Shown: one piece after another, positions 15,001-18,000 of the stretch
Position numbering within the stretch: the first letter of the stretch is position 1
How the letters are laid out: every line of letters begins with the position of its first letter
Assembly: GCF_003018255.1 (NCBI RefSeq)
Contig: NZ_CP027441.1
DNA from: Escherichia coli
GTDB taxonomy: Bacteria > Pseudomonadota > Gammaproteobacteria > Enterobacterales > Enterobacteriaceae
DNA: 64,000 bases
Direction: 5' to 3' (one strand)
Made by a program: the position numbers

Positions 15001-18000
15001 TGTCTGGCGTGAAGGGTACCGCTATATGAAGGCAGGAGTCATGCTGGCTGATTTCACACCATCGGGTATAGCGCAGACGGGATTATTTGATGAAATCCAG
15101 CCCCGTAAAAACAGTGAAAAGTTAATGAAAACACTCGATGAACTGAACCTGTCGGGAAAAGGGAAAGTGTGGTTTGCGGGGCGAGGAACCGCCCCTGAGT
15201 GGCAAATGAAACGGGAAATGCTTTCTCCTGCGTATACCACCAGATGGACAGATTTGCCAGTAGCCCAGTTATGAATATGTAATCCACCCATAATATTGTT
15301 ATCTTGTCACCTTGTTATCTTGTTATCTTGTTATCTTGTTATCTTGTTATCTTAATTAATCTATAAATCAAATACTTAACAGCTTGTTAAGTTGTTAATA
15401 TAACAAAAATAATTGCATGATTCGCGTTCAGATGGCAATATTAAGTTGTTAACTTAACAACTTAATATGAGGCTATAATGATAATAGTATTAGGTAGTCA
15501 AAAGGGTGGGGTAGGTAAAAGTACACTGGCGGTATCTATAGCTGCGTATCTGATGTCACTAGGCAATAGAGTGATTATTGTCGACGCAGATGACCAGAAA
15601 TCAGTATTAACCTGGTACAACAATCGCCCTGAAGATCTCCCTCATATTCCGGTTACAGGCGCGACAGGTAACATCAAAGCCATGTTAAAGGAACACGAAA
15701 AATCCTATGATTTTGTTATTGCAGACTGTGCTGGCCGTGATAGCGCAGAAATGCGTAGTGGATTGATGGCCGCAGATGTATTCATTTCTCCTTTGCGCCC
15801 ATCTCAGATGGACCTGGATGTTGTGCCTCATACATGCTCCGTTTTTACAGCAGCAAAAGATTTTAATGAGGATGTTCGGGGATATCTCGTTTTAAACATG
15901 ACGCCCACAAATATGTTTGTTAATGAAGCCAATGAGGCAGCTGAAGTTCTTAAGGATTACCCTGAAATGCATCTGGCAAACTCCCGGGTATGTGATCGTA
16001 AAGCACATCGAGATGCTTGGGCCGAATCAATGACAATCTTTGAAACGCAAAATGATAAAGCCCAGCAAGAAATCGAAGCGTTAGTGAAAGAGGTTATTCT
16101 GTGAGAAATAGAGCAAACACTTCACCTCGTGACGAGGCAGCATTTATTAACGGTGGCACGGCTGGCCTTGATAATACCAAAAAGTCATCAGATAAATCAT
16201 CGGTTGTAAGCAAAGCAAAACCAGTGAGTATTTCTTTTTTTGAAGAAAACCTAAAAGACATTGATGCCCTTATAACGGCTGAGATGGTTTCAGGTAAAGG
16301 CAGAGTGAATCGTTCTGATGTTGTCAGGGCGGCGGTAGAAGCACTTAAAACACTATCAAAAACAGAGGTATCACGATTGATAGCAGAAGTAAAACAAAGA
16401 TAACACCTTGTTATCTTGTTATCTTGTTATCTTGTTATCTTGTTATCTTGTTATCTTGTTATCTTGTTATCTTGTTATCTTGTTATCTTCAATGTATTTT
16501 AGGATGACCTATGTTGAATAGAACCTAAAACAAAACAAATATTAATGGGGTCCGCTTGGAAAAGGGAAATTTTCCCACGCTAAGAGAATTGAGTTGAACG
16601 AGTGGTTACATCTAGGCCAGCTAACTCACTGAACGTAAAGGCTGTACGAAATGTTCCGGCCGTCCGATAACCGTTTGGCTTACTTCCGTACATTCCCTTG
16701 CGTAGATGTACAGAATTGTACGATTTCGGACACCGAAACAGCTGTTGTCCCGCCATCCTGGCGATTCCTGAAAGTCATTTGTCTAAAAAATAGTCTTAAC
16801 GTGGTTTATTTTCCGAATTCCAAGCGGCCCCCATGAGCAACTGACCCGGTTTGCGGAACGACGCATCCGGGAATGCAATCTGGACAGCCAGGGCGCGATT
16901 TATCTCTGCGAGTCAGCCAAAGCCGGAGCCGTGCTGATCTTCTGGCATGAACTGGCCATAAATGGCTATGCCTCAATGAATGCCATAAAGAGACAGGAGC
17001 TCATTGACGCCGACTTTCAGCGCCTCAGAAAGCTCATCTGGCCGGAGGATGACAGGTAATGACCCAGAGCCGCCGACCGTCGCCACTGCAGCGGAGAGTG
17101 CTGATTGTGCTGGCTGCCCTTGATGAAAAACGGCCGGGCCCCGTGCTGACACGGGACCTGGAACGGGTGCTGGAGCGAAGCGGGGAAGCCCCGGTCTACG
17201 GGCCAAACCTGCGCGCCTCCTGCCGTCGCCTGGAGGATGCCGGCTGGCTGCGCACCCTGCGCGCCCCGAATCTGCAGCTGACTGTCGAGCTGACGGACGC
17301 CGGCCGGGCCGTGGCACAGCCTCTGCTGCTGGCAGAACAGGACCGCCTCCGGGCAGAACAGCGTGCGGCAGAAGTCGTCGTACTGCCGCTGGTCCCGGCC
17401 GCAGGTCTGCCCGCAGACGGCACTTCTGCCACTGATCTGGCGGTGGAGCTGAACGGCATGACGTATCAGGCCTGCCGTGGGGATTTTGTGGTACGTCTCG
17501 ACGGCAGCACCTGTCTGCAGTTATGGAATAAAGAAGGCAGGGTGGTACGCCTGGAGGGCGATCCGCTGGAAGTGGCGCAGTGGCTGCAGGCCTGTCACGA
17601 TGCCGGAATGGAGGTTCGTGTACAGGTTAATGAAAGCGTCACTCCGTAAAAACACGCCTGTGCACGGTTTACACATCATCCCATGGTGGCAGCCGGTTAA
17701 CTTTCCTGCGCCACCAGTGGAAAGAGGCCATGCACAGTCCGAACAAAAAACCACCCGTGATACTTATAATAATGGCCTCACCTGCGACCATTCCTGACGG
17801 CCCCCAGTAGATAAACCACATTGCACATCCCCAGGAAATGCCCCATAAACCCCCCGTCAGCACCGTGACCTGCCAGAACGGCATAAAGGGTAATGGCGGA
17901 AGCCGGATACCCAGCCGCCAGAGAATACGCAGAAGAGGAGGGGCATAATTGCTCCGCCACATCTTTTTGCTGTCCATCAGGGCAATGGCCCGGGCTTTTT

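What the first reader, a model, noticed from the sequence alone, without database searches (positions are those of the whole stretch)
15296..16486. Partition cassette bracketed by two arrays of the same 8-bp unit (CTTGTTAT x5 upstream, x10 downstream) plus a 25-bp perfect palindrome
A ParA ATPase and a small ribbon-helix-helix partner are flanked on both sides by direct tandem repeats of one octamer, with a palindromic operator-like site between the upstream array and the start codon. Two centromere-like arrays around a type Ib locus, and such a short unit, are distinctive and could define specificity separate from the other two partition systems in this window.
Basis: seen in the sequence. 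Interest (0 to 1): 0.5.

Follow-up and report, generated by a model that had tools for sequence, protein, structure and literature searches.

The report
Known IncI plasmid partition locus parABS
This is the plasmid-segregation cassette already characterised on the E. coli O104:H4 plasmid pESBL: a ParA ATPase, a small DNA-binding ParB, and arrays of an 8-bp ParB-binding unit on both sides, so the finding is real but ordinary.

Summary
CTTGTTAT occurs 5 times exactly upstream (7 units counting two degenerate ones, 15296-15353) and 10 times downstream (16407-16489). That is 16 copies in the window against 2 expected. The palindrome is real but is 31 bp (15438-15468), not 25.

ParA (208 aa) and the 100-aa partner are 100% identical to ParA and ParB of the IncI plasmid pESBL. 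For that plasmid, Poidevin et al. 2020 (PMC7602700) showed three things:
- ParB binds the octamer arrays in gel-shift assays.
- GFP-ParB forms foci only when the plasmid is present.
- The locus stabilises a mini-F plasmid.

They classed it as type Ib and noted that pB171 and pSM19035 also have arrays on both sides.

What I add is small:
- Structure prediction supports a ribbon-helix-helix dimer for ParB.
- Array copy number varies between plasmids that carry identical proteins (about 5-9 units upstream, 6-16 downstream).
- A conserved TTGCAT-17-TGgCAATAT promoter candidate overlaps the palindrome. This suggests an untested ParB operator, as in TP228 parH/OF.

Verdict: already known, low interest.

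The parts
15296..15353 (+). Upstream centromere array (parS-up): 7 units of the octamer TTGTTATC (the GATAACAA of the paper, read on the other strand). Five are exact and two at the 5' end are degenerate.
   Evidence: Orthologous to the 7DR gel-shift probe bound by pESBL ParB.
15384..15406 (.). Promoter-proximal degenerate octamers: TTGTTAAG and TTGTTAAT (direct, 8 bp apart) and TTGTTATA (inverted). Candidate auxiliary ParB sites.
   Evidence: Mismatch scan. Function is inferred only.
15413..15441 (+). Candidate sigma-70 promoter: -35 TTGCAT (15413-15418), a 17-nt spacer, then TG (15433-15434) and -10 CAATAT (15436-15441).
   Evidence: The hexamers are conserved while the spacer has diverged across 7 plasmids. 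The consensus scan did not list it, because its -10 matches only 3 of 6 positions. Inferred.
15438..15468 (.). 31-bp perfect palindrome (15+1+15) holding convergent near-octamers TTGTTAA-C-TTAACAA. It overlaps the candidate -10 and start site. Putative ParB operator.
   Evidence: Nearly invariant in IncI, IncK, IncR and Salmonella relatives. Binding has not been tested anywhere I could find.
15469..15472 (+). Shine-Dalgarno GAGG, 5 nt before the parA ATG.
   Evidence: Sequence.
15478..16104 (+). parA: 208-aa Walker-type (KGGVGKS) partition ATPase of the short type Ib class.
   Evidence: 100% identical to pESBL ParA. NCBIfam ParA_partition E 1e-45. Closest solved structure is TP228 ParF, aligned over the full length.
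16101..16403 (+). parB: 100-aa centromere-binding protein with a disordered, conserved N-terminal tail and a C-terminal ribbon-helix-helix domain plus an extra helix.
16399..16406 (-). Single inverted near-unit (GATAACAC) overlapping the parB stop codon. This is the position where pESBL carries a block of 4 inverted units.
16407..16489 (+). Downstream centromere array (parS-down): 10 exact CTTGTTAT units.
   Evidence: Orthologous to the direct half of the 8BS probe bound by pESBL ParB.

Best explanation
This is the pESBL-type (IncI-complex) type Ib parABS plasmid partition system. Dimers of the small ribbon-helix-helix protein ParB bind cooperatively to the 8-bp units of the two arrays flanking the operon, about one complex per unit. 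This builds a partition complex on the plasmid. The ParB N-terminal tail then engages the short Walker-type ATPase ParA, which is bound to the nucleoid, and the plasmid copies are positioned apart so that each daughter cell inherits one.

Shown by others for identical proteins: array binding, plasmid-dependent foci, stabilisation of mini-F, and mis-segregation of deletion mutants.

Inferred here:
- the RHH fold of ParB
- the ParA-stimulating role of the tail
- autorepression by ParB at the promoter-overlapping palindrome and the neighbouring degenerate units.
For: - ParA and ParB are 100% identical to the pESBL proteins, and the RefSeq protein accessions are the same.
- The octamer and its placement on both sides are the same.
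- The published 7DR probe is the orthologous upstream array.
- PMC7602700 reports gel-shift ladders of 7 and 8 complexes, GFP-ParB foci only with the plasmid, mini-F stabilisation, and depletion of transposon insertions in this ~1-kb region.
- The ParA best solved match is TP228 ParF over the full length, E 2e-14.
- The locus is present with at least 80% coverage in 1019 plasmid records.
- Arrays flank the operon in all 17 loci examined, although the unit varies and no upstream array was detected in two of the distant loci.
Against: - Nothing was measured on this particular plasmid.
- In native pESBL, deleting par alone did not visibly destabilise the plasmid, because post-segregational killing and re-transfer mask the loss.
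- The window lacks the inverted block of the pESBL downstream array.
- The NCBIfam ParA_partition score (155.8) is below the curated cut-off of 180.
- ParB has no Pfam hit and no sequence match in the PDB, so the RHH assignment rests on predicted structure.
- The promoter and operator roles are inferred from conservation only.
Confidence: 0.95

Rival explanations
1. The palindrome is not a ParB operator. It would act instead at the RNA level, as a 5'-UTR hairpin next to the Shine-Dalgarno sequence that affects translation or stability, or as a site for another factor. Autoregulation, if any, would then run through the upstream array, as at pB171 parC1.
For: - The arms match the octamer at only 6 and 7 of 8 positions.
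- The single pESBL variant in the right arm (A to G) would still allow a G-U pair in RNA.
- The transcription start is not mapped, and the consensus scan also lists an upstream promoter candidate at 15384-15413, which would place the palindrome inside the transcript.
- PMC7602700 leaves open whether the upstream array regulates expression.
Against: - The conserved hexamers with a diverged 17-nt spacer place the -10 inside the palindrome's left end. Most of the left arm would then not be transcribed.
- Type Ib centromere-binding proteins of the RHH class (ParG at OF) repress through direct and inverted boxes next to the centromere.
- A divergent relative (Lelliottia, L008) has its own palindrome, TTATCTTA-A-TAAGATAA, built from its own array-like unit at a comparable position.
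Confidence: 0.3
2. The arrays are replication iterons or copy-control sites rather than centromeres.
For: In IncR and IncFII(K) Klebsiella relatives the upstream array lies a few hundred bases downstream of a RepB initiator gene.
Against: - In the window and in IncI plasmids the upstream neighbour is an impB/umuC-type polymerase gene, not a rep gene.
- ParB itself binds the arrays, and the cloned locus stabilises a mini-F that replicates from its own origin.
- The second array lies downstream of parB in every relative.
Confidence: 0.01
3. The arrays are neutral slippage-prone microsatellites with no function.
For: Copy number differs in steps of 8 bp between plasmids with identical proteins.
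Against: - Arrays are kept on both sides of the operon across plasmids of different incompatibility groups and genera, while the flanking DNA diverges.
- ParB binding to the units is published.
Confidence: 0.01

Closest known systems
pESBL (IncI1, E. coli O104:H4) parABS, Poidevin et al. 2020, Genes 11:1207 (PMC7602700)
   Same: ParA and ParB are identical in sequence. The octamer is the same (GATAACAA = TTGTTATC read on the other strand). Arrays lie upstream and downstream. The upstream neighbour (impCAB-type genes) and the promoter region are the same.
   Different: - The window has 10 exact direct units downstream and no block of 4 inverted units. pESBL has 4 inverted plus about 10 direct units, three of them CTTGTCAT.
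- The upstream array differs in two units.
- The palindrome is perfect here and has one mismatch in pESBL.
- The host replicon is a pO113-like IncFIB/IncI-gamma plasmid rather than an 88-kb IncI1 plasmid.
TP228 parFGH (ParF ATPase, ParG RHH protein, parH centromere plus OF operator)
   Same: - A short ParA-type ATPase; ParF is the closest solved relative of this ParA.
- A small RHH protein with a flexible N-terminal tail.
- Binding sites iterated every 8 bp (a 4-bp box plus a 4-bp spacer), with one dimer per box.
- A distal array acting as centromere, and a proximal set of direct and inverted boxes acting as operator.
   Different: - The unit sequence differs (ACTC boxes there, TTGTTATC here).
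- TP228 has its sites upstream only; here there is a second array downstream.
- ParB has an extra C-terminal helix.
pB171 par2 (parC1-parA-parB-parC2)
   Same: A type Ib operon bracketed by two ParB-binding repeat regions. The upstream region also serves regulation.
   Different: The repeat unit and protein sequences differ. From memory, the pB171 units are 6 bp. In pB171, parC1 is shared with a divergent parMR locus.
pSM19035 delta/omega system
   Same: An RHH centromere-binding protein (omega) binds short iterated units in direct and inverted orientation at several sites, and doubles as a transcriptional repressor (cited; PMC3074150 listed).
   Different: It is a Gram-positive plasmid. From memory, its units are 7-bp heptads located in promoter regions of several operons. 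The proteins are unrelated in sequence.

Membership tests
pESBL-type parABS (Poidevin et al. 2020) | ParA of 208 aa with an N-terminal Walker A motif, identical or near-identical to pESBL ParA | tested here: met
   208 of 208 residues identical. Same accession, WP_000587689.1, in the 100%-identical plasmid H1 and in pESBL.
pESBL-type parABS (Poidevin et al. 2020) | 100-aa ParB (Hp7, O3K_25817) | tested here: met
   100 of 100 residues identical. Accession WP_001245884.1.
pESBL-type parABS (Poidevin et al. 2020) | Arrays of the octamer GATAACAA both upstream and downstream of parAB | tested here: met
   Side-by-side comparison with pESBL.
pESBL-type parABS (Poidevin et al. 2020) | Inverted as well as direct units in the downstream array | tested here: not met
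   There is only one degenerate inverted unit, at 16399-16406. Seven of the eight IncI-complex loci with identical or near-identical proteins also lack the block, so this is a variable feature and not a defining one.
pESBL-type parABS (Poidevin et al. 2020) | ParB binds the arrays and the locus stabilises an unstable replicon | not testable with these tools
   Published for the identical proteins and the orthologous upstream array.
Type Ib partition systems | Short ParA (~200 aa) with a deviant Walker A motif and no N-terminal DNA-binding domain | tested here: met
   208 aa with KGGVGKS starting at residue 9. Full-length match to ParF, 206 aa. NCBIfam ParA_partition covers residues 2-205.
Type Ib partition systems | Small centromere-binding protein unrelated to ParB/Spo0J proteins, encoded downstream of parA | tested here: met
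   100 aa, overlapping the parA stop codon. No ParB/Spo0J or any other Pfam domain.
Type Ib partition systems | The centromere-binding protein autoregulates the operon | not testable with these tools
   Position and conservation of the palindrome fit this. The pESBL paper does not address it.
Ribbon-helix-helix (Arc/MetJ/CopG) DNA-binding fold | Strand-helix-helix topology, dimerising through an antiparallel two-stranded sheet | tested here: met
   Prediction only.
- Monomer model: an extended segment at 41-47, then helices 48-64 and 71-82.
- Tethered dimer model: DSSP calls a short strand in each copy, residues 9-11 and 101-103, which are residues 42-44 of ParB. pTM 0.77.
Ribbon-helix-helix (Arc/MetJ/CopG) DNA-binding fold | Sequence-profile match to an RHH family | tested here: not met
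   No Pfam hit. No PDB sequence hit with either the single sequence or the family profile. Only a sub-threshold NCBIfam aCcr1 hit, E 0.006. Some NCBI records of close relatives are named RHH domain-containing.

The most novel reading that the evidence does not exclude
Two linked readings are not excluded.

1. Split roles. The locus may divide ParB's two jobs between different site classes, as TP228 does with parH and OF. The perfect flanking arrays would act as centromeres. The promoter-overlapping 31-bp palindrome and the degenerate units at 15384-15406, built on a TTAA-core variant of the unit, would form a dedicated autoregulatory operator of different affinity.

2. Unit diversification. 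Across the wider ParB family the repeat unit changes (TTGTTATC, ATCTTAGT, ATCTTATT, GTTATTAA, and ATCTTAAC in one Salmonella upstream array). The 8-bp period and the predicted DNA-reading strand KAKPVSxS stay fixed. Specificity, and so partition incompatibility, would then be set by something other than the strand residues, for example indirect read-out or the flanking helices.
Probability: 0.35. Interest if true: 0.3.

Novelty: already known. Interest (0 to 1): 0.1.

Why it matters
The locus is one of the main inheritance devices of IncI, IncK and IncR-type resistance and virulence plasmids in E. coli, Klebsiella, Salmonella and Shigella. At least 1019 plasmid records carry it nearly full length. 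Its identity and mode of action were published in 2020, however, so flagging it here adds nothing basic.

The residual value is modest:
- a predicted RHH fold for a ParB that the original paper described as having no recognisable DNA-binding motif
- a concrete operator and promoter hypothesis
- evidence that array copy number is highly plastic.

These points could matter for partition-based incompatibility, or for plasmid-curing designs aimed at this system.

Tried and rejected
- Pfam on ParB gave nothing significant.
- PDB sequence searches found no RHH match, whether with ParB alone or with the 37-member family profile.
- Rfam on 14500-18500 found no family.
- The consensus promoter scan did not list the conserved TTGCAT/CAATAT pair. 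It found no more sites than shuffles give, and no intrinsic terminator after the downstream array.
- A full-text search for the repeat sequence found no paper. The relevant paper was found by keywords.
- Iterons and neutral microsatellites were considered and rejected (see rival explanations).
- Cross-talk with the second ParA locus is judged unlikely. The two ParA proteins are 24% identical, the small proteins show no similarity, and the local repeats differ.

Full report
Observation.

- An 8-bp tandem array lies at 15296-15353 (7.2 copies, 92% matches) and another at 16407-16489 (10.4 copies, 100%).
- Exact CTTGTTAT occurs 5 times upstream and 10 times downstream, with only one other copy in 64 kb. 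That is 16 matches against 2.0 expected, and no shuffle of 100 reaches 16.
- Between the arrays lie parA (15478-16104, 208 aa) and a 100-aa ORF (16101-16403) whose GTG start overlaps the parA stop.
- The palindrome is 31 bp, not 25: arms of 15 nt around one central base, at 15438-15468.
- It is the longest palindrome in the window and exceeds everything seen in simulated sequence of the same size.

Identity.

The 1.4-kb region matches about a thousand plasmid records nearly full length. These are mostly E. coli, Shigella and Salmonella IncI-complex plasmids at 95-100% identity and Klebsiella IncR/IncFII(K) plasmids at about 87-90%.
- The best hit, 100% identical apart from four fewer repeat units, is a 174-kb IncFIB/IncI-gamma E. 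coli plasmid of the pO113 type.
- A keyword search found Poidevin et al. 2020 (Genes 11:1207, PMC7602700), which characterised exactly this locus on pESBL, the IncI plasmid of the 2011 O104:H4 outbreak strain.
- I fetched pESBL-EA11 and compared directly. ParA is 208/208 identical and ParB 100/100 identical to the window's proteins.
- The flanks carry the same octamer in the same places.

The paper reports the following:
- Transposon insertions in this ~1-kb region are lost during growth without selection.
- The cloned locus stabilises an unstable mini-F.
- GFP-ParB forms foci only in cells that carry the plasmid.
- ParB-containing extracts shift probes with 7 direct units (7DR) or 4+4 opposed units (8BS) into ladders of 7 and 8 complexes.

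The 7DR probe is the orthologue of window 15287-15360 and differs in two units. The authors call the system type Ib. They name the octamer GATAACAA, which is TTGTTATC on the other strand. They note that pB171 and pSM19035 also have arrays on both sides.

What I could add: the ParB fold.

The paper states that ParB has no predicted DNA-binding motif, and sequence methods still find none.
- An AlphaFold2 model built on 37 family members is confident over residues 41-100 (pLDDT 82-96). It shows an extended segment, then helices 48-64 and 71-82 and an extra helix 87-98. The N-terminal 40 residues are disordered.
- A model of two C-terminal domains joined by a flexible linker has pTM 0.77. DSSP calls a short strand in each copy.

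The RHH claim is therefore supported at the level of prediction.

In the family alignment two segments are invariant: the predicted DNA-reading strand KAKPVS-S and the helix-2 cap RVNRSD. An N-terminal motif M-R-N-R...E..FI..G is also invariant. By analogy with the ParG tail, that motif is the likely ParA-contacting and ATPase-stimulating element. This is inference. The closest solved relative of ParA is ParF of TP228, aligned over the full length.

What I could add: array plasticity.

Among eight IncI-complex loci encoding identical or near-identical ParA and ParB, the upstream array has 5.2-9.2 units and the downstream array 6.4-16.4 units. Match lengths in the database search differ mostly in multiples of 8 bp. 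The block of four inverted units downstream of pESBL parB is absent from the window and from the other six loci. The window's junction looks like the pESBL sequence with the segment between two GATAACACCTTG repeats removed.

What I could add: promoter and operator.

Seven upstream regions were aligned, from IncI, IncK, IncR/IncFII(K) and a Salmonella salamae plasmid.
- TTGCAT (15413-15418) and TGgCAATAT (15433-15441) are conserved, while the 17 nt between them have diverged freely. That is the pattern expected of a promoter.
- The palindrome begins inside this -10 element and covers the expected start site.
- It is almost invariant across these plasmids.
- Each arm contains a near-octamer: TTGTTAAC on one strand and TTGTTAAG on the other, convergent around the central base.
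- Three more degenerate units (two direct, one inverted) lie at 15384-15406, just upstream of the -35.

The layout is a perfect distal array followed by a promoter-proximal set of degenerate direct and inverted sites. It mirrors TP228, where 12 distal boxes form the centromere parH and 8 proximal boxes form the OF operator, with boxes every 8 bp and one ParG dimer per box. I therefore think ParB autorepression at the palindrome is the most likely role, at roughly 0.6. The pESBL paper does not mention a palindrome, promoter or autoregulation, and leaves the regulatory role of the upstream array open. The main alternative is an RNA-level hairpin or a site for another factor. It cannot be excluded without mapping the transcript start.

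Wider family.

More distant ParB relatives (55-71% identity; Pantoea, Lelliottia and metagenomic plasmids) keep the operon and short 8-bp-period arrays, but the unit can differ.
- Units seen are ATCTTAGT, ATCTTATT and GTTATTAA. One relative at 59% identity keeps GATAACAA.
- A Salmonella salamae plasmid has ATCTTAAC x10 upstream and CTTGTTAT x6 downstream.
- Within arrays the middle three positions of the unit vary most, and ATCTT is the commonest constant part.
- The predicted DNA-reading strand does not change with the unit.

I did not resolve this. It is the basis of the 'novel case'.

Other partition loci in the window.

A ParM/ParR pair lies at 27935-29393 and a second ParA plus small protein at 29739-30829, both on the minus strand.
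- The two ParA proteins are 24% identical.
- The small proteins show no detectable similarity.
- The repeats around the second locus are different.
- The octamer is not clustered anywhere else in the window.

Verdict.

This is a real feature, correctly interpreted and already published. Neither the dual arrays nor the 8-bp period is unusual for type Ib systems. Novelty: already known. Interest: 0.1.

Noticed in passing
window 16545-16835: Directly after the downstream array lies a ~290-nt long-range inverted repeat. Its ends are TGGGGTCCGCTTGGAAAAGGGAAATTTTCCCACG... and ...CGTGGTTTATTTTCCGAATTCCAAGCGGCCCCCA. It folds unusually well as single-stranded DNA: minus strand -52.2 kcal/mol, z -4.7; plus strand z -3.5. 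Part of it (about 16547-16750) is conserved and unannotated in many other plasmids, including R100/NR1 and pC15-1a. There is no Rfam family. From memory, it resembles the Frpo/ssi-type single-strand promoter hairpins of conjugative-plasmid leading regions.
   Followed up: partly
window 14004-15274: The impB/umuC-type Y-family polymerase gene just upstream appears split into two overlapping ORFs in different frames: 14004-14996 (330 aa) and 14858-15274 (138 aa). In pESBL it is one 1272-nt gene. No CDS is listed there in the 100%-identical plasmid. It is probably a frameshifted pseudogene.
   Followed up: no
window 27935-30829: There are two further partition loci, both on the minus strand: ParM/ParR (28344-29393 and 27935-28351) and a second short ParA with a 102-aa partner (30134-30829 and 29739-30047). 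They have their own repeats, for example AGATATCC-type at 30835-30945. The second small protein has no detectable similarity to this ParB.
   Followed up: partly
window about 17570-18080 and 33650-34160: A segment is duplicated about 16 kb apart. Identical short tandem-repeat rows appear at 17571/33655 and 18055/34137. The matching plasmid annotation shows two copies of a set made of a hypothetical gene, another hypothetical gene and a DUF6404 gene, each next to colicin-related genes.
   Followed up: no
L004 (Salmonella salamae pSGSC3045-121), locus 689-769 and 1808-1860: This plasmid has the same operon (ParB 96 aa). Its upstream array is ten exact copies of a different octamer (ATCTTAAC), while the downstream array is CTTGTTAT x6. 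Either ParB tolerates both units, or the two arrays differ in function.
   Followed up: partly
L015-L018 (Pantoea-like and metagenomic relatives): ParB relatives at 55-71% identity keep 8-bp-period arrays with changed units (ATCTTAGT, ATCTTATT, GTTATTAA) or the same unit (GATAACAA). They often have opposed blocks downstream. The predicted DNA-reading strand KAKPVSxS is unchanged.
   Followed up: partly
L009 (pO113, NC_007365.1), locus 479-1509: In the pO113 reference record the par locus carries no annotation. The reading frame runs through the parA stop, giving a 308-aa ORF, which suggests a one-base difference or a sequencing error in that older record.
   Followed up: no
window 32755-32777: The second-longest palindrome in the window has 11-nt arms around one base. 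I did not examine it.
   Followed up: no
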